This document shows positions 9,210 through 63,637 of a stretch of 64,000 nt of DNA, in pieces (the first letter of the stretch is position 1; each line of letters opens with the position of its first letter). Source of the DNA: Candidatus Magasanikiibacteriota bacterium (GTDB taxonomy: Bacteria; Patescibacteriota; Patescibacteriia; Magasanikbacterales; UBA922); assembly GCA_043825135.1 (NCBI GenBank), contig JBDRSF010000015.1, forward strand, positions 1,559-65,558, in the 5' to 3' direction. The position numbers were made by a program, and so were the translations under genes. The notes beneath the pieces were generated by a model that saw nothing but the letters and a program-made list of their open reading frames with translations, searched no databases and was not told the DNA's origin.

Positions 9210-9253
9210 TAAAATAAATTACCTACTGAGATATCTCAGTAGGTAATTTATTA
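9210..9253. repeat. ~44-nt perfect palindrome with 20-bp core CTACTGAGATATCTCAGTAG (copy 1 of 3); probable bidirectional terminator/operator
   Basis: AATAAATTACCTACTGAGATATCTCAGTAGGTAATTTATT; core recurs at 18108-18127 and 58298-58317. Confidence 0.7.
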
Positions 9254-18093: not shown

Positions 18094-18129
18094 TGTTATA
18101 ATATGATCTACTGAGATATCTCAGTAGAT
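18094..18129 (+). promoter_or_regulatory. extended -10 (TGTTATAAT) followed 4 nt later by the 24-nt palindrome ATCTACTGAGATATCTCAGTAGAT
   Basis: Second copy of the CTACTGAGATATCTCAGTAG palindrome, here overlapping the predicted transcription start of the exonuclease gene. Confidence 0.5.
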
Positions 18130-18147
18130 AATTATTAATAAAATTTT

Positions 18148-57797: not shown

Positions 57798-57818
57798 TAA
57801 AATTGATTAGATATAAAT

Positions 57819-57851
57819 AAACCCGCTCCAATATACATCGGAGCGGGTTTT
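57819..57851. terminator. bidirectional rho-independent terminator between convergent genes
   Basis: AACCCGCTCCAATATACATCGGAGCGGGTTTTTATTT. Confidence 0.6.
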
Positions 57852-57903
57852 TATTTGTGTGTTGGGAACCGTCCTCCTCCCAAAATGGACGGTTCCGAGT
57901 TTG

Positions 57904-58164
57904 TCAGCGTACGCTTCTCAGAAGCTTTCGCAAGGCGGGTTTTAGGTCTAGATCTACTAATGGATAACCCTTTTGAATTGGTCGTAGAACATGGGCGATC
58001 ACCACATATTCATTACCGCGACTCATGGTTTGGAAGGTGGCACCAGCTTTTTTTGCTGAATTCGCAATTTCGGTTGCTATTTCGGGCTTATCTCCTTCCT
58101 CTAGAAGAAAAGCTCTCTTTACGCCTTTTACCTGAAATTCTCTACTCGCTTCAACAATCATCAT
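57904..58164 (-). CDS. hypothetical small protein (86 aa) in a GC-richer segment
   Basis: Convergent with the SPFH gene across a bidirectional terminator; SD AAGGGG upstream; preferred over the overlapping + strand ORF 57855-58193. Confidence 0.35.
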   Translation of the reverse strand: MMIVEASREFQVKGVKRAFLLEEGDKPEIATEIANSAKKAGATFQTMSRGNEYVVIAHVLRPIQKGYPLVDLDLKPALRKLLRSVR

Positions 58165-58295
58165 CTTTTGATTATCCCCTTGTTTATGTTTAAGTATTTA
58201 CTGACTATGTGGAGGATAACATAAAAAAAATTAAAAATCAAATTTTAGTCGTCCATATTCCCCCAGAGGTGGGCAGACATGGTATGGTCTAAGTT

Positions 58296-58317
58296 ATCTA
58301 CTGAAATATCTCAGTAG
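58296..58317. repeat. third copy of the CTACTGAGATATCTCAGTAG palindrome (one mismatch)
   Basis: ATCTACTGAAATATCTCAGTAGGT, preceded by a -10-like TGGTATGGT. Confidence 0.6.
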
Positions 58318-58345
58318 GTAAAGTGGTAGTATTTATCCACAGTTT

Positions 58346-58357
58346 TTAGCACTTGAC
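58346..58357 (+). promoter_or_regulatory. CIRCE half-site-like TTAGCACTTGAC
   Basis: Duplicate of the left arm of the CIRCE-like element at 58481. Confidence 0.3.
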
Positions 58358-58448
58358 CCCGCCTAATATCCTCTCTAGCTCGCTGTGGCTTCGCTATGTA
58401 GCGATATTAAGCGGGGCAGGCCCCGCCAATAGGATAGCCTCGCCACTA

Positions 58449-58507
58449 TAATGAGGTAGGCATTTTTCATTGTGGATAACTTAGCACTTGACATGTCAGA
58501 GTGATAA
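58449..58507 (+). promoter_or_regulatory. -10 (TATAAT) plus CIRCE-like HrcA operator TTAGCACTT-N9-GAGTGATAA upstream of hrcA
   Basis: Canonical CIRCE is TTAGCACTC-N9-GAGTGCTAA; here TTAGCACTTGACATGTCAGAGTGATAA, with a further GAGTGCTAG right arm at 58524. Confidence 0.6.
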
Positions 58508-58607
58508 TGGTAGAATTATCACTGTAAATGATAGAGTGCTAGCATTGATTCAAACTGATTTATACAGATTTGAGCAAAATCTGTTTTAATCTGTCTTAAT
58601 CAATGCT

Positions 58608-59285
58608 ATGAATAGTCGTCAAGAGCAACTCCTAAAATTAGTCGTAGAGTCATATATAGAGAGGGCTGAACCAGTTGGGTCTAATTTTTTGGTGGAAAAT
58701 ACTGATTTGGGAGTGAGTGGGGCGACTATTAGAAATGAAATGAGAGAGTTGGAAGAACAAGGTTACTTGACTCATCCTCATACTTCTTCTGGGCGTATTC
58801 CGACAGAGCTGGGATATCGTCACTATGTAGAAAATTTGATGAATCCTGTTAATATTAAAGATAGTCATAAAGAAGAAATTCAAATTTGTTTTTCAAGTGC
58901 AGAAGGGAAGCAGGCAGTAAAAAACATTGCCAAATACATTGCTGAAAAAACAAATAATGCAGTAATAGTTGCGTTTGGTACAGATGCTTTGTATTACACT
59001 GGCATGAGCCAACTGTTTACCCAGCCAGAATTTCGCGATTATGCTTTTATGGTTAAAGCTTCTACTATTTTTGATCAATGTGAGGAAAGAATTGAAGAGA
59101 TTATTGATTTGTTTGTTGATAAAGAACCAAAAGTCTTGATAGGGGCTGACAATCCTTTTGGGCAGATGACTAGTATGGTTGGTGTTCGGATTGGGGAAGT
59201 ATTTTTTACTATTTTGGGTCCCATGAGAATGGATTATAGTAAGGCCTATTCTTTTGTGGATTATTTACGGGGCGAGGTTAGATAA
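58608..59285 (+). CDS. hrcA: heat-inducible transcription repressor HrcA (short form)
   Basis: N-terminal winged helix EPVGSNFLVENTDLGVSGATIRNEMRELEEQGYLTHPHTSSGRIPTELGYRHYV; 225 aa, shorter than typical HrcA. Confidence 0.8.
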   Translation: MNSRQEQLLKLVVESYIERAEPVGSNFLVENTDLGVSGATIRNEMRELEEQGYLTHPHTSSGRIPTELGYRHYVENLMNPVNIKDSHKEEIQICFSSAEGKQAVKNIAKYIAEKTNNAVIVAFGTDALYYTGMSQLFTQPEFRDYAFMVKASTIFDQCEERIEEIIDLFVDKEPKVLIGADNPFGQMTSMVGVRIGEVFFTILGPMRMDYSKAYSFVDYLRGEVR

Positions 59286-59288
59286 CAA

Positions 59289-59362
59289 AAATCACGTAAC
59301 ACATAACATTATACACGTAACACATAACACGTAACACATAACACGTAACACGTAACAAATTT
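59289..59362. repeat. tandem array of ~14-nt units (CACGTAACACATAA) x4-5
   Basis: ATCACGTAACACATAACATTATACACGTAACACATAACACGTAACACATAACACGTAACACGTAACAAA directly upstream of the Nudix-grpE ORF. Confidence 0.65.
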
Positions 59363-59363
59363 T

Positions 59364-60254
59364 ATGACAGAAGAAAAAAAATATCCAAGTTTGACTGTTG
59401 GTGTTTATATTTTTAACAAAAAGGGAGAAATGTTTTTGATGAGAGCTCCCCATTGGTCTGATAAGTTAGTTATACCTGGCGGGCATGTTGATTATGGTGA
59501 ATCGGTAAGTAATACGGTAATAAGAGAGACGAAAGAGGAAACTGGTTTAGATGTTGAGAATTTAGATTTTTTAAAAGTAGAGGAAATAAAAGATTCAAAA
59601 GATTATACAAAAAATAAACATATTGTTTCTCTAGCTTACAAAGCAACACTCAAAGATGATAAACAAGAACCAAAATTGGACGGCAGAGAGGCGACAGAGT
59701 TCTTTTGGATTAAGCCTAAAGATATCTTGAAAAGAGATGATATTGAAGAGCATACTTACAATGCTACTGAAGAATTATTTGTAAAGAAAAAGAAAAGAGG
59801 TTTTTTAAAAAAATGTAAAAATTGTGAAAAAACCGATGAATATAAATCAGGTTGGGCACGAGCGCAGGCAGATTATCAGAATTTGGTAAAAGAGACTGAA
59901 AAGAAACGAAGTGAGTGGGCGGAATATTCAGAAAGACAGATTTTGGAAGAGTTTATTCCAGTATATGACAATTTCAAGACAGCTTTCAGTCATCAGACTT
60001 CAGACTCCAGCCCCGAATTGGATAATTGGAAGAAAGGAATTGAATATATTATGAAGCAATTTAATAAAGTTTTAGAAGATCACGGTGTGATAGAAATTAG
60101 AACAGTTGGAGAAATTTTTGATCCTGAGCGTTACGAAGCAGTTAGCGAAGAAGAAAGTGATGAAGAATCCGGTAAGATTATCAGAGAGATGGTGTCTGGA
60201 TATGAGATGAGAGGGAAAGTTATTCGCGTGGCGAAAGTAGTAGTAAGTAAATAA
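59364..60254 (+). CDS. grpE: NUDIX hydrolase - GrpE fusion protein
   Basis: Residues 1-140 carry a Nudix box GGHVDYGESVSNTVIRETKEETGL; residues ~165-296 are GrpE-like (ILEEFIPVYDNF..., GVIEIRTVGEIFDPERYEAV..., KVIRVAKVVV); one continuous ORF. Confidence 0.7.
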   Translation: MTEEKKYPSLTVGVYIFNKKGEMFLMRAPHWSDKLVIPGGHVDYGESVSNTVIRETKEETGLDVENLDFLKVEEIKDSKDYTKNKHIVSLAYKATLKDDKQEPKLDGREATEFFWIKPKDILKRDDIEEHTYNATEELFVKKKKRGFLKKCKNCEKTDEYKSGWARAQADYQNLVKETEKKRSEWAEYSERQILEEFIPVYDNFKTAFSHQTSDSSPELDNWKKGIEYIMKQFNKVLEDHGVIEIRTVGEIFDPERYEAVSEEESDEESGKIIREMVSGYEMRGKVIRVAKVVVSK

Positions 60255-60264
60255 TTTTAAAACC

Positions 60265-60381
60265 AGTCATTGCGAGGAATGCGTAGCAATGACGAAGCAA
60301 TCCCATCCATAAATACCACTGCTAGTGTATTAAAGACTGGGATTGCCACGTCCCGATGCGAATCGGGACTCGCAATGACAC
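60265..60381. repeat. family A MITE-like element (copy 3) upstream of hsp20
   Basis: AGTCATTGCGAGGAATGCGTAGCAATGACGAAGCAATCCC...GGGATTGCCACGTCCCGATGCGAATCGGGACTCGCAATGACAC. Confidence 0.7.
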
Positions 60382-60449: not shown

Positions 60450-60890
60450 ATGTTACCAAGAATATATGATCCCTTTGAGGAGATGGAAGAAATGATGAGA
60501 CATCTTCCTTCCGTTCGTAATACCAATGCTATTCAACCAAGGGGTTTTGTGCCAGCTTTAGACGTATACGAGACTAAGACCTCTGTTATGGTAGAAACAC
60601 CTCTGGCTGGAATTAATCCCAAGGATGTTGAGGTCAGTGTTGAAAAAGGAATTCTCACAATCCAAGGTGAAAGTAAAAAAGAACACGAAGTAGAAGAAAA
60701 AAACTATTATCGCAAAGAAGTTCGCTCTGGTTCATTTTATCGTAAAGTTGATTTACCAAAACCTGTAAAAGAAGACGAAGTAACTGCCGAGTTTGAAGAT
60801 GGAATTTTGAAGATTACTTGTCCTAAGGCTGAGCCGAGTGTTAGTAAGAAAGTTGCGGTGAAGGTGGTGAAGAAGGGGAAGCGGGTGTAG
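60450..60890 (+). CDS. Hsp20/alpha-crystallin family small heat-shock protein
   Basis: Alpha-crystallin domain PALDVYETKTSVMVETPLAGINPKDVEVSVEKGILTIQGE...AEFEDGILKI. Confidence 0.88.
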   Translation: MLPRIYDPFEEMEEMMRHLPSVRNTNAIQPRGFVPALDVYETKTSVMVETPLAGINPKDVEVSVEKGILTIQGESKKEHEVEEKNYYRKEVRSGSFYRKVDLPKPVKEDEVTAEFEDGILKITCPKAEPSVSKKVAVKVVKKGKRV

Positions 60891-60973: not shown

Positions 60974-61531
60974 ATGAAAAATTTTGAAGAAATAAAAAAA
61001 GAAATAGAAAATATTATTATAAGTTATGATGGTAAAAATGAATTACCACATGCTATTGGCACATTGAATTGGGTTTTAAAAATCAGGCCAGATGCAGATG
61101 ATGCTTTGAAAATTTCTGCGTTTGCCCATGATATTGAAAGGTGTGTTGTTAAACATGAAAAGAGCTCAGATTATTTAATTGTTAACGAGTTTGATAAGTA
61201 CCAGATTTTAAAGCAGGAACATGCTGATAAAGGTGCGGAAATAGTAGTAAATATTTTGGGGAAATATGATGTTAGTGAAGCAGAAAAACAGCGAGTAAAA
61301 TATTTAATTAGCCATCACGAAGTTGGTGGTAATAATGATGCGGATGTTTTGTGCGATGCTGACAGCCTGTCTTATCTACTTGATAATTTTATAGGTTATC
61401 TTGATAAATATGGTACGGACAGGGCAAAAGTTAAGCTGGAGTGGATGTACGGGCGTATGTCTGAGAGAGGAAAAGAATTAGGATTGGAATTTTATAATGA
61501 AGCGTTGAGAAAATTAGGTGATAGTGGATAA
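60974..61531 (+). CDS. HD-domain phosphohydrolase-like protein
   Basis: FAHDIERC..., HADKGAEIV..., LISHHEVGGNNDADVLCDADSLSYL consistent with an HD metal-binding arrangement. Confidence 0.45.
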   Translation: MKNFEEIKKEIENIIISYDGKNELPHAIGTLNWVLKIRPDADDALKISAFAHDIERCVVKHEKSSDYLIVNEFDKYQILKQEHADKGAEIVVNILGKYDVSEAEKQRVKYLISHHEVGGNNDADVLCDADSLSYLLDNFIGYLDKYGTDRAKVKLEWMYGRMSERGKELGLEFYNEALRKLGDSG

Positions 61532-61660: not shown

Positions 61661-63637
61661 ATGTCAAAAATATTAGGAATAGACTTGGGGACAACTAATT
61701 CATGTATGGCTATCACCGAGGGTGGTCAGCCAAAAGTGCTTGAAAATAAAGAGGGGAATAGAACTACTCCGTCTGTAATTGCAATGTCAAAGACAGGGGA
61801 ACGTCTGGTAGGTCAGCTGGCCAAGCGTCAAGCTGTTACTAATCCGACAAATACACTTCATTCAATCAAACGTCTAATCGGACGCCGTTATGAGGATGCC
61901 GTGGTACAAGAAATGAAAAAACATGCTCCATTTGAAATTTTGAAAGATGGTGATCGTATCAAAATTAAAATGCAAGACAAGGAGTATGCTTTGCCAGAAA
62001 TCTCTGCTATGGTTTTGCAGAAATTAAAAGCTGACGCGGAAGAAAAAATTGGTGAAAAAATTGAAGAAGCTGTGATCACTGTTCCAGCCTATTTTGATGA
62101 TGCTCAACGCCAAGCTACAAAAGCTGCCGGTGAAATTGCAGGTTTGAAAGTGAGTCGTATTATTAACGAGCCAACTGCAGCCGCTTTTGCTTATGGATTT
62201 GATAAAGCAAAAGATCAACAAGTGGCTGTTTATGATCTTGGTGGTGGTACTTTTGATATCTCTATTTTAGATATTTCACATGATGGTGATCAATCTACTG
62301 TAGAAGTAAAATCTACTAATGGTGATACCCATCTTGGTGGTGATGACTTTGATCAAAAGATTATTGAATGGATTTTGGATGAATTTAAGAAAGTAGAAGG
62401 AATGGATTTAAGCAAAGACCCATTATCTCTACAACGCGTTAAGGATGCCGCTGAGAAGGCCAAAATTGAGCTTTCTAGCACTCCTGAGAGTGAAATCAAT
62501 GAACCATTCATTACTTCTGGTGCCGAGGGTCCAAAGCACTTAAATATGAAATTAACTCGCGCCAAATTAGAAGAGCTTGTAGGTGAGTTAGTAGAAAAGA
62601 CAATGGTTCCAGTTAAAAAAGCTTTAGACGACGCTGGATTCAAAAAAGAAGATATTGAAGAAGTTATTTTAGTTGGTGGTATGACTCGTATGCCTTTGGT
62701 ACAAAAAAAGGTAGAAGAATTTTTTGGCAAGAAACCTCATGTGGGAGTAAATCCAGATGAAGTTGTTGCTATAGGTGCTGCTATTCAAGCTGGGCAACTT
62801 CAAGGTGATCTTGGTAAAGATATTTTGCTTTTAGATGTTACACCTTTGTCACTTGGACTTGAAACTTTAGGCGGTGTTTCTACAAAATTAATTGAACGCA
62901 ACACTACAATTCCAACAAGCAAATCACAAGTATTTTCAACTGCTGCTGACAACCAGCCCAGTGTTGAAATCCATGTGCTTCAAGGTGAGCGTGAAATGGC
63001 AACTGACAATAAATCTCTTGGTCGTTTCATGTTGGATGGTATTCCACCAGCTCCACGTGGTGTGCCACAAGTAGAAGTGACTTTTGATATTGATGCCAAT
63101 GGTATTGTAAGTGTAAAAGCCAAAGATAAGGCAACTGGCAAAGAACAATCAATTCGTATTGAAGCATCTTCAGGATTATCAGATGAGGAAATTGAAAAAA
63201 TGAAAAAAGATGGTGAAGCTCATGCTGAAGAAGATAAGAAAAAACGCGAGATGATTGATATCAAGAATACCGCGGATACTATGATTTATACTACAGAAAA
63301 AATGATGAAAGATGTGGAAGAAAAAAAGATTGAAGTTACTGATGAAGAAAAAAAGAAAGTAGAAGAAGGTGTAGAAGCCTTGAAAAAAGCTTTAAAAGGG
63401 AGTGATGACCCTTCGGCAGACTCAGGGCAAGCTATAGAGGAAATCAAAAAGGTTTCTGAAGAATTATCAACCGCAGCTCAAGCAATTGGTATGAAAATGT
63501 ATGCTACAGAGCAGAAGGAAACAAGTGACAAGAAACAAGATACAAATAATCCTGATGCAGAAGCTGGTGAAGCAAAAAAGAAAGACGAAGGTGAAGCAGT
63601 AGAGGGTGAAGTGGTTGATGAGGAAGAGAAAAAATAA
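61661..63637 (+). CDS. dnaK: molecular chaperone DnaK (Hsp70)
   Basis: [40 protein letters not shown] signatures; acidic C-terminal tail; terminator 63657-63690. Confidence 0.95.

What the first reader, a model, noticed from the sequence alone, without database searches (positions are those of the whole stretch)
59364..60254. Nudix hydrolase fused to GrpE inside the hrcA-grpE-dnaK heat-shock cluster
A single 296-aa ORF carries a complete Nudix box (GX5EX7REUXEEXGU: GGHVDYGESVSNTVIRETKEETGL) N-terminally and a GrpE dimerisation/beta-domain C-terminally, in place of the normal GrpE N-terminal helix. A nucleotide-pyrophosphatase fused to the DnaK nucleotide-exchange factor could couple (di)nucleotide signalling to chaperone cycling. 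It is unusual and unlikely to be a frameshift artefact because the ORF is continuous.
Basis: seen in the sequence. Interest (0 to 1): 0.6.

Follow-up and report, generated by a model that had tools for sequence, protein, structure and literature searches.

The report
Nudix enzyme built into GrpE co-chaperone
A tiny uncultured bacterium (Magasanikbacteria, candidate phyla radiation) makes its DnaK helper protein GrpE with a nucleotide-cleaving Nudix enzyme spliced into its floppy front end; the fusion is real and shared by many relatives, but what the enzyme cleaves and whether it affects the chaperone is untested.

Summary
ORF 59364-60254 (+, 296 aa) carries a NUDIX domain (aa 10-132, Pfam E 1e-22) and a GrpE domain (aa 154-296, E 6e-38) in one frame. 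It sits between hrcA and hsp20/dnaK, behind a strong promoter with two CIRCE-like operators.

It is not an assembly artefact. About 140 distinct sequences from independent assemblies share the architecture, down to about 35% identity, and 140 of the 143 fused sequences scored keep the catalytic REx2EE core.

The GrpE long helix is retained (predicted helix 159-209, aligning to E. coli GrpE 55-194). The Nudix module is a cassette inside the disordered N-terminal tail. A close relative (L002) is collinear at about 82-85% nucleotide identity but has 91 nt where this window has the 403-nt Nudix segment.

On a DnaK tree, a Falkowbacteria-like clade is uniformly fused and Magasanikbacteria are patchy.

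The Nudix domain resembles small MutT/NUDX1/NUDT15-type enzymes but meets no curated subfamily cut-off, so the substrate is unknown. Coupling to DnaK nucleotide cycling is speculation.

Databases already hold these proteins, named only "GrpE", and I found no paper on the fusion. I rate it a new variant of a known kind, of moderate interest.

The parts
59364..60254 (+). Nudix-GrpE fusion gene (296 aa)
   Evidence: The ORF is listed. Pfam finds NUDIX plus GrpE. The protein is identical to NCBI P0001.
59364..59380 (+). Conserved extreme N-terminus (MTEEKK), shared with unfused GrpE of relatives
   Evidence: The protein alignment shows it. Nucleotide collinearity with L002 runs up to 59380.
59381..59783 (+). 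Nudix hydrolase module (aa ~7-140). The Nudix box is aa 40-62, nt 59481-59549. This segment is present here and absent in close relatives.
   Evidence: Pfam NUDIX covers aa 10-132. AlphaFold2 pLDDT is about 97. Foldseek matches AtNUDX1, R. felis MutT and NUDT15. L002 has 91 unrelated nt in its place.
59784..59834 (+). Flexible K-rich linker with a CxxC motif (KKKKRGFLKKCKNCEKT, aa 141-157)
   Evidence: pLDDT is below 50 for aa 146-157. The segment is also present in unfused lineage GrpEs. CxxC occurs in 55/140 fused and 40/77 unfused sequences.
59835..60254 (+). Canonical GrpE body: long helix (aa 159-209), second bundle helix (217-239) and beta domain (242-295)
   Evidence: Pfam GrpE matches profile positions 24-165 of 165. 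It aligns to E. coli GrpE 55-194 and G. kaustophilus GrpE 74-212. Secondary structure comes from AlphaFold2. Foldseek matches GrpEL1 and GrpE-DnaK entries.
58481..58542 (+). Two tandem CIRCE-like inverted repeats overlapping a sigma-70-type promoter (TTGACA-17-TAGAAT, 58488-58516), upstream of hrcA
   Evidence: The CIRCE search found 2 matches with 2 and 3 mismatches, against 0.01 expected. The promoter scores 11/12 with a TG extension.
58608..59285 (+). hrcA (short form, 225 aa), first gene of the presumed operon
   Evidence: Pfam HrcA scores 41 bits against a cut-off of 22.2. It lies upstream of grpE in 82 of the 83 fetched loci; L024 begins at grpE.
59293..59357 (.). Heptamer tandem repeat (CACGTAA x 9.3) filling the hrcA-grpE spacer
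   Evidence: Tandem Repeats Finder.
60450..60890 (+). hsp20 (small heat-shock protein)
   Evidence: Pfam HSP20 scores 74.4 bits. It is syntenic in most loci.
60974..61531 (+). DUF4202/HD-domain protein in a variable slot between hsp20 and dnaK
   Evidence: Pfam DUF4202 scores 63.8 bits and HD 24 bits. It has no counterpart in the other loci, where other genes occupy the slot.
61661..63637 (+). dnaK (658 aa), the partner of GrpE
   Evidence: The ORF is listed. Identity across loci is 64-95%.

Best explanation
This is a genuine bifunctional protein that is conserved across a lineage.

Anatomy. A catalytically competent small Nudix pyrophosphohydrolase of the MutT/NUDX1/NUDT15 structural type is inserted as a cassette into the disordered N-terminal tail of an otherwise canonical GrpE. 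A flexible linker of about 15-20 residues, K-rich and often carrying CxxC, joins it to the GrpE long helix.

Expression. The gene is most likely transcribed with hrcA, hsp20 and dnaK from a CIRCE/HrcA-controlled promoter. The Nudix activity would then be made in step with GrpE and induced by heat stress.

Function. The GrpE body works as the DnaK nucleotide-exchange factor (inferred from the conserved fold, motifs and synteny). The Nudix module most likely works as a stress-induced 'house-cleaning' hydrolase for a nucleoside di- or triphosphate derivative. The exact substrate cannot be told from sequence. Tethering to dimeric GrpE would give two copies per dimer and place them next to DnaK's nucleotide-binding domain.

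The fusion is an accessory rather than an obligatory part of the DnaK cycle, because very close relatives have the same operon with a GrpE that lacks the module.

Shown: domain content, conservation of the catalytic core, the cassette boundaries, phyletic distribution and operon context. Inferred: enzymatic activity, substrate class, heat induction, and any functional cross-talk with DnaK.
For: Domains and fold.
- Pfam scores for both domains are far above their cut-offs.
- The AlphaFold2 model has a Nudix domain at pLDDT about 97, a disordered linker at 146-157, and a GrpE helix, bundle and beta domain.
- Foldseek matches AtNUDX1 (32% identity, TM 0.74), R. felis MutT (TM 0.83), NUDT15 and NudI for the front half. 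It matches GrpEL1/GrpE-DnaK complexes for the back half.

Selection on catalysis.
- REx2EE is intact in 140 of 143 fused sequences.
- Further near-invariant residues lie outside the box: N18, W31, H41, Y/F81, H86, E109 and W115.

Reality of the fusion.
- 91 of the best 120 clusters are fused.
- 32 of 84 loci compared are fused (83 fetched plus this window); 80 of them are species-representative genomes.
- No base-composition anomaly: GC 32.8% against 35.4% for the window, and GC3 equal to that of dnaK.

Cassette nature.
- Unfused GrpEs keep the same start (MxEE) and the same K-rich/CxxC segment.
- The window and L002 are collinear at 82-85% nucleotide identity, except that 59381-59783 is replaced by 91 nt.

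Operon.
- Two CIRCE-like sites are present.
- An 11/12 promoter overlaps them, and the only terminator-like site on the + strand between the hrcA start and dnaK lies inside hrcA (58971) and is within chance expectation.
- The hrcA-grpE-(hsp20)-dnaK order holds in essentially all 83 fetched loci (L024 begins at grpE; a few loci end before dnaK).
- In L084 and L038 an extra standalone Nudix paralogue sits between hrcA and the fused gene. This ties the Nudix function to the heat-shock operon independently of the fusion.

House-cleaning type.
- The best curated hit is MutT.
- One of the two close standalone relatives whose context I examined lies between PCNA and primase/GINS in an archaeal contig.
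Against: - No curated Nudix subfamily model reaches its cut-off. MutT scores 36.7 bits against 148, and RppH, NudE, NudC and others are lower still. The substrate class is a guess.
- Magasanikbacteria are patchy for the fusion, and a near relative lacks it. Any benefit is therefore dispensable.
- In L038 the fused copy has a degenerate box (RKIKDE) while the upstream standalone copy is intact. The tethered domain can therefore persist without catalysis in at least one case.
- Heat induction rests only on consensus matches.
- I could test nothing about DnaK interaction.
Confidence: 0.62

Rival explanations
1. There is direct mechanistic coupling. The tethered Nudix domain acts on a nucleotide that binds DnaK. 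Candidates are the heat-shock alarmone Ap4A or related NpnN, damaged ATP/ADP such as 8-oxo- or 2-OH-ATP, or the ADP just released by GrpE. Nucleotide exchange and removal of an inhibitory nucleotide would then happen at the same site.
For: - Ap4A photo-crosslinks to DnaK, GroEL and ClpB in E. coli, and apaH mutants are heat-sensitive (PMC10148737, citing Johnstone & Farr 1991).
- The fusion puts the enzyme on a short flexible tether at the GrpE end that faces DnaK in solved complexes. That orientation is established knowledge from 1DKG/4ANI and was not tested here.
- The Falkowbacteria-like clade is 17/17 fused on the DnaK tree.
- Other nucleotide-handling genes recur in the same operon slot: HD/DUF4202 here, Fic and CYTH in relatives.
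Against: - Similarity to Nudix Ap4A hydrolases is much weaker (PDB E 8e-5 to 8e-4) than to NUDX1/MutT-type enzymes (1e-11).
- No Ap4A or ADP-compound hydrolase model passes its cut-off.
- Close relatives with the same operon lack the domain.
- AlphaFold2 gives no defined interface between the domains (pTM 0.49, linker pLDDT below 50).
Confidence: 0.15
2. The Nudix domain is mainly a regulatory or structural N-terminal appendage. It would be a bulky substitute for the disordered GrpE tail that in E. coli competes with substrate at the DnaK substrate-binding domain. Alternatively it senses a nucleotide and tunes GrpE activity, with hydrolysis secondary.
For: - The module sits exactly where unfused GrpEs carry their tail.
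- Other unrelated modules occupy the same position: DUF1653-GrpE in L075 and DUF1653-Nudix-GrpE in L032/L050.
- The fused copy in L038 has a degenerate box next to an intact standalone copy.
Against: - The catalytic core is intact in 140 of 143 fused sequences, and conserved pocket-like residues are kept. That points to selection on catalysis.
- Tails in unfused relatives are short and low in complexity, so no bulky domain is required.
Confidence: 0.13
3. It is an assembly or annotation artefact: two adjacent genes (nudix, grpE) merged by an indel in the A/T-rich homopolymer stretch at 59790-59830.
For: The linker coding region contains T6 and A7 runs. One related genome (L008) does show a homopolymer (A12) frame problem, but at the extreme 5' end and not at the junction.
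Against: - The same continuous architecture occurs in about 140 distinct sequences from NCBI, JGI, ENA and Logan assemblies, down to about 35% identity.
- No locus has a separate nudix gene followed by an unfused grpE.
Confidence: 0.01

Closest known systems
Bacterial GrpE (E. coli GrpE, PDB 1DKG; Geobacillus kaustophilus GrpE, PDB 4ANI)
   Same: The C-terminal 140 residues align end to end: E. coli 55-194 (E 9e-11) and G. kaustophilus 74-212 (E 2e-14). The signature RAxADxxN and LPVxD motifs are conserved. The predicted fold is a long helix, a bundle helix and a beta domain. The gene lies between hrcA and dnaK.
   Different: The disordered N-tail is interrupted by a folded 134-aa enzyme domain. 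The paired helix starts about 15 residues later than in E. coli. A K-rich CxxC segment precedes it. Scores fall below all NCBIfam GrpE equivalog cut-offs (best 98.9 against 137).
Small MutT/NUDX1/NUDT15-type Nudix hydrolases (A. thaliana NUDX1, 5GP0/6FL4; Rickettsia felis MutT, 4KYX; human NUDT15, 5BON)
   Same: It has a complete Nudix box, a single compact domain of about 135 aa, and the shared GGH motif before the box. Sequence E-values are 1e-11 to 1e-10. Foldseek TM-scores are 0.72-0.83 with rmsd of about 2 A.
   Different: Identity is only 24-32%. No curated subfamily threshold is met. It is covalently tethered to a co-chaperone. The substrate is unknown.
Standalone ~140-aa Nudix proteins of archaea and Patescibacteria (P0122 Altiarchaeota; P0276 in a PCNA-primase-GINS neighbourhood; P0135 Patescibacteria)
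   Same: They are 35-47% identical over the whole Nudix module. P0135 lies inside the same heat-shock operon, directly upstream of a Nudix-GrpE gene.
   Different: They are not fused. Except for P0135 and the L038 upstream copy, they are not in chaperone operons.
Redox- or stress-sensing eukaryotic GrpE homologues (Mge1, GRPEL2)
   Same: This is only a conceptual parallel: a GrpE that carries an extra stress-related feature. The CxxC just before the helix in this lineage could play a comparable role. This rests on my own recollection of the literature and was not tested.
   Different: Those proteins sense stress through single Met or Cys residues and carry no extra enzyme domain.

Membership tests
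GrpE (PF01025) | Profile match above the Pfam gathering score | tested here: met
   130.5 bits against a cut-off of 25.8, aa 154-296, profile positions 24-165 of 165.
GrpE (PF01025) | Long N-terminal helix, helical bundle and C-terminal beta domain | tested here: met
   AlphaFold2 predicts helices 159-209 and 217-239 and strands 242-295. Foldseek matches GrpEL1 (9bls_C, TMt 0.79). This is a prediction, not a solved structure.
GrpE (PF01025) | Genomic association with dnaK (and hrcA in CIRCE-regulated bacteria) | tested here: met
   The order is hrcA - this gene - hsp20 - HD - dnaK. The same order holds in essentially all 83 related loci (L024 begins at grpE; a few loci end before dnaK).
GrpE (PF01025) | NCBIfam 'nucleotide exchange factor GrpE' equivalog cut-offs | tested here: not met
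   The best is NF010738 at 98.9 bits against a cut-off of 137. These models are narrow and clade-specific. Failure reflects divergence in the candidate phyla radiation, not loss of the domain.
GrpE (PF01025) | Dimerisation and acceleration of ADP release from DnaK | not testable with these tools
   This needs biochemistry.
GrpE (PF01025) | Only grpE in the genome (housekeeping role) | tested here: inconclusive
   There is no second GrpE in the 64-kb window. None of the 80 species genomes contributed two loci. Whole genomes were not scanned.
Nudix hydrolase superfamily (PF00293) | Nudix box GX5EX7REUXEEXGU | tested here: met
   G40-L62, GHVDYGESVSNTVIRETKEETGL. REx2EE is kept in 140 of 143 fused homologues.
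Nudix hydrolase superfamily (PF00293) | Profile match above the gathering score, and an alpha/beta/alpha sandwich fold | tested here: met
   81.1 bits against a cut-off of 21.1. The AlphaFold2 model at pLDDT about 97 matches solved Nudix structures with TM 0.72-0.83.
Nudix hydrolase superfamily (PF00293) | Metal-dependent hydrolysis of a nucleoside diphosphate linked to X | not testable with these tools
   This needs an enzyme assay.
MutT 8-oxo-dGTP diphosphatase (NF008044 / TIGR00586) | Equivalog score cut-off | tested here: not met
   36.7 bits against 148, and 35.2 against 97.9.
Nudix Ap4A/ApnA hydrolases and RppH | Curated model cut-off or close similarity to solved Ap4A hydrolases. Also a Tyr 16-18 residues after the box (recalled from Dunn et al. 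1999). | tested here: not met
   RppH models score 20-26 bits against cut-offs of 116-259. PDB Ap4A hydrolases give E 8e-5 to 8e-4. A conserved aromatic (Y/F81, 95%) lies at +19, not +16 to +18, which is suggestive at most.
ADP-ribose pyrophosphatases | Curated model cut-off. Also a Pro 16 residues after the box (recalled from Dunn et al. 1999). | tested here: not met
   TIGR00052 scores 16.4 bits against 79.55, and NudE 27.7 against 169. Position +16 is Ser here, and S/P/D (33/28/17 of 91) among homologues.

The most novel reading that the evidence does not exclude
In these ultra-small bacteria the N-terminal tail of GrpE serves as a modular docking arm. It brings nucleotide-processing modules (Nudix; DUF1653; an extra Nudix in cis) to the nucleotide-binding domain of DnaK. 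The tethered Nudix enzyme would clear an inhibitory or signalling adenine nucleotide (Ap4A-type alarmone, oxidised ATP/ADP, or released ADP) at the moment of exchange. This would be the first case of a nucleotide-exchange factor that also destroys a nucleotide ligand of its Hsp70.
Probability: 0.15. Interest if true: 0.78.

Novelty: new variant of a known kind. Interest (0 to 1): 0.5.

Why it matters
GrpE is normally a plain scaffold protein whose N-terminal tail and long helix tune DnaK. A GrpE with an intact enzyme spliced into that tail has, as far as I could find, not been described in print. It is conserved across two orders-worth of candidate-phyla-radiation bacteria.

If the Nudix module acts on a DnaK-binding nucleotide, it would link the old and unresolved Ap4A/heat-shock question to a concrete protein that can be purified. 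If it does not, the case still matters in two ways. It shows domain accretion in streamlined genomes. It also offers natural with/without pairs (this window against L002) for testing what the module contributes. In practical terms, the current database name 'nucleotide exchange factor GrpE' hides half of the protein.

Tried and rejected
1. Assembly artefact. Rejected on the number and diversity of fused homologues.

2. Recent horizontal insertion. Base composition and GC3 of the Nudix segment match the neighbours.

3. Remnant of a deleted Nudix in the unfused relative L002. There is no similarity above shuffled controls (local score 13 against 12.1 +/- 1.8). The direction of the indel in that pair stays open.

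4. Single or multiple origin of the fusion, from a Nudix-domain neighbour-joining tree. It is unresolved. The fused domains fall into 3-4 groups interleaved with standalone ones, on only 134 columns and without support values. I draw no conclusion from it.

5. Assigning a substrate through NCBIfam subfamily models. All are far below cut-off.

6. Literature search for the fusion. Searches for Nudix+GrpE+fusion and for Nudix/GrpE with CPR or Patescibacteria found nothing relevant. DUF1653 gave one unrelated proteomics paper.

7. Foldseek against AFDB50, to look for the architecture in UniProt models. That library was not available.

8. Rfam scan of the window. It found only four tRNAs and nothing near the locus.

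9. Pfam on the two overlapping ORFs in the 57.8-58.2 kb gap. No hits.

10. My first regex for the GrpE helix motif was too strict and missed many loci. I replaced it with an HMM-anchored count.

Full report
**1. The observation**

The ORF 59364-60254 on the + strand is real. It starts with ATG and encodes 296 aa. The quoted Nudix box is at aa 39-62 and fits the consensus.

Pfam finds NUDIX at aa 10-132 (81.1 bits, E 1e-22) and GrpE at aa 154-296 (130.5 bits, E 6e-38). Both are far above their gathering scores.

The neighbours are a YidC-like insertase, a Band-7 protein, a short HrcA (225 aa), this gene, Hsp20, a DUF4202/HD protein and DnaK.

The identical protein is in NCBI as 'MAG: nucleotide exchange factor GrpE [Candidatus Magasanikbacteria bacterium]' (P0001). 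The window therefore comes from a Patescibacteria (candidate phyla radiation) genome bin.

**2. Not an artefact**

A search of 5.8 billion protein clusters returned 280 relatives. Of the best 120, 91 are 260-400 aa long and carry both Pfam domains, down to 34% identity. They come from NCBI, JGI, ENA and Logan assemblies.

A scan of one genome per GTDB species gave 80 loci. With the three loci fetched earlier (L001-L003) and the window, 32 of 84 loci compared encode the fusion in one frame. One of them, L008, has an A12 homopolymer frame problem at the extreme 5' end.

No locus has a separate nudix gene followed by an unfused grpE.

GC content (32.8% against 35.4% for the window) and GC3 (0.24, equal to dnaK) of the Nudix segment are unremarkable.

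**3.

The GrpE profile is matched from position 24 to 165 of 165. The C-terminal half aligns to E. coli GrpE residues 55-194 and to G. kaustophilus GrpE residues 74-212.

AlphaFold2, run on a 47-sequence alignment, gives a mean pLDDT of 85.8:
- a Nudix domain at pLDDT about 97 (aa 9-140)
- a disordered linker (aa 146-157, pLDDT below 50)
- a 51-residue helix (159-209)
- a second helix (217-239)
- a beta domain (242-295)

The long helix is therefore present.

Unfused GrpEs of close relatives (P0075, 174 aa; P0084, 187 aa) begin with the same MxEE residues. They then have 20-50 low-complexity residues, then the same 'KKKKxFxKKCKNCEK' segment, then the helix 'EYKxGWxRAQADYQNL'.

At the nucleotide level the window and L002 (which encodes P0084) are collinear at about 82-85% identity through hrcA, hsp20 and dnaK, and 73% through the GrpE body. 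The exception is window 59381-59783, the 403-nt Nudix module. L002 has 91 unrelated nt there.

The Nudix domain is thus a cassette inside the disordered N-terminal tail of GrpE. It is not a replacement of the helix.

**4. Distribution**

On a neighbour-joining tree of DnaK, used as a rough proxy for the species tree, a clade whose named members are Candidatus Falkowbacteria is fused in 17 of 17 genomes. In the Magasanikbacteria clade, fused and unfused genomes are interleaved: about 12 fused among about 45.

All loci keep the order hrcA-grpE-(hsp20)-dnaK (L024 begins at grpE; a few loci end before dnaK).

This pattern means either an old fusion with repeated loss or exchange of alleles. A tree of the Nudix domain alone was too poorly resolved to decide.

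There are variations on the theme:
- L084 and L038 carry an additional standalone Nudix gene between hrcA and the fused gene.
- L032 and L050 have DUF1653-Nudix-GrpE, and L075 has DUF1653-GrpE.
- P0033 has an S1 domain after GrpE.

The GrpE N-tail in this group is evidently a place where modules are added and removed.

**5. Is the Nudix part an enzyme, and of what kind?**

The REx2EE core is intact in 140 of 143 fused sequences. Outside the box, several positions are 87-100% conserved among 91 fused proteins that share only about 35-50% identity overall: N18, W31, H41, Y/F81, H86, E109 and W115. That is the pattern of an active enzyme with a defined substrate pocket.

The nearest solved proteins are:
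- A. thaliana NUDX1 (E 1e-11; 32% identity; TM 0.74)
- Rickettsia felis 'ADP-ribose pyrophosphatase MutT' (TM 0.83)
- NUDT15, NudI and GDP-mannose mannosyl hydrolase

The best curated family is MutT, but at 36.7 bits against a cut-off of 148. No Nudix subfamily model is met.

An exhaustive HMMER search found many standalone Nudix proteins of about 140 aa at 35-47% identity. One lies between PCNA and primase/GINS in an archaeal contig. One is named from Altiarchaeota. One, from Patescibacteria, is the extra copy in the heat-shock operon of L084.

I therefore call it a MutT/NUDX1-like small Nudix hydrolase of unknown substrate.

**6. Regulation**

Two CIRCE-like inverted repeats lie upstream of hrcA: 58481-58507 with 2 mismatches and 58516-58542 with 3, against 0.01 matches expected by chance. 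They overlap an 11/12 sigma-70-type promoter with a TG extension at 58488-58516.

The only terminator-like site on the + strand between the hrcA start and dnaK lies inside hrcA (58971) and is within chance expectation.

The simplest reading is one HrcA-repressed operon, which would make the Nudix module a heat-shock protein. This is inference from consensus matches.

**7. Mechanism**

Best-supported reading, confidence 0.62. The protein is a bifunctional GrpE. The body does nucleotide exchange on DnaK. The tethered Nudix enzyme is a stress-induced nucleotide 'house-cleaner'. Fusion guarantees co-expression and dimeric presentation, and may give proximity to DnaK. The module is dispensable, as the near relatives show.

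Rival, 0.15: direct coupling. The enzyme removes a DnaK-binding nucleotide such as Ap4A. Ap4A crosslinks to DnaK in E. coli (PMC10148737). This is attractive, but sequence similarity does not support it.

Rival, 0.13: a structural or regulatory appendage that replaces the substrate-competing tail.

Rival, 0.01: artefact.

**8. Comparison with what is known, and novelty**

Both domains are members of well-known superfamilies by every test I could run. Subfamily membership of the Nudix part fails all tests. The GrpE part misses the narrow NCBIfam equivalog cut-offs (best 98.9 against 137) but passes Pfam, fold and synteny.

The architecture already sits in public databases under the name 'GrpE'. 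Three literature searches found no description of it.

I rate it a new variant of a known kind, with interest 0.5. The object is solid and conserved and comes with natural with/without controls. Its significance depends on an untested functional link.

Noticed in passing
window 59293-59357: The whole hrcA-grpE spacer is a tandem heptamer repeat, CACGTAA x 9.3 (also readable as a 21-mer x 3.3). It ends 6 nt before the ATG, and there is no obvious Shine-Dalgarno sequence. It might be a slippage-prone tract or a binding array.
   Followed up: partly
window 59805-59822 (aa 148-153, KKCKNC) and homologues: A CxxC motif lies just before the GrpE long helix. It occurs in 55/140 fused and 40/77 unfused lineage GrpEs. 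In a GrpE dimer, two CxxC motifs could form a Zn(Cys)4 or disulfide clamp at the base of the thermosensor helices. Canonical E. coli GrpE lacks it, judging from the alignment.
   Followed up: partly
L032:5782-6813, L050:5776-6804, L075:839-1495: GrpE carries other N-terminal modules in related Patescibacteria: DUF1653-Nudix-GrpE (342-343 aa) and DUF1653-GrpE (218 aa). DUF1653 has no known function.
   Followed up: partly
L084:5001-6309 and L038:1071-2371: The arrangement is hrcA - standalone Nudix (146 aa) - Nudix-GrpE - hsp20 - dnaK, a tandem Nudix duplication inside the operon. In L038 the fused copy has a degenerate box (RKIKDE) while the free copy is intact.
   Followed up: partly
window 60974-61531 and the same slot in L002, L012-L015, L021, L031, and the P0075 contig: The gap between hsp20 and dnaK is a variable cargo slot. 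Here it holds a DUF4202/HD phosphohydrolase-like protein. Elsewhere it holds Fic, CYTH (208 aa, confirmed by Pfam only in L015; ORFs of the same size lie in L014, L017 and L038, untested), GNAT acetyltransferases, a zinc-type dehydrogenase, a Vut_1 transporter, or ORFs with no Pfam match. Several of these act on nucleotides or polyphosphates.
   Followed up: partly
window 58481-58542: Two tandem CIRCE-like operators overlap a near-consensus extended -10 promoter in front of a short (225 aa) HrcA.
   Followed up: yes
window 57800-58600: About 800 nt lie between the Band-7 gene and hrcA with no convincing gene. There is a 14-bp GC-rich hairpin at 57819-57850, which scores as a terminator on the minus strand. 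Two overlapping ORFs (57855-58193 +, 57904-58164 -) have no Pfam hit, and there is no Rfam hit. Short stretches (58279-58322) recur elsewhere in the window, at about 9216-9251 and 18097-18135, which suggests a small dispersed repeat.
   Followed up: no
window 60291-60352: A 26-nt imperfect inverted repeat (77% complementary) lies in the 195-nt spacer after the grpE stop codon. The scan did not call it a terminator.
   Followed up: no
L004, L006, L009, L019, L025 and other TPA assemblies: Many species-representative MAGs that carry this Patescibacteria operon are titled 'uncultured Gammaproteobacteria bacterium' in their records. This is almost certainly a placeholder or a mislabel in the deposited taxonomy.
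   Followed up: no
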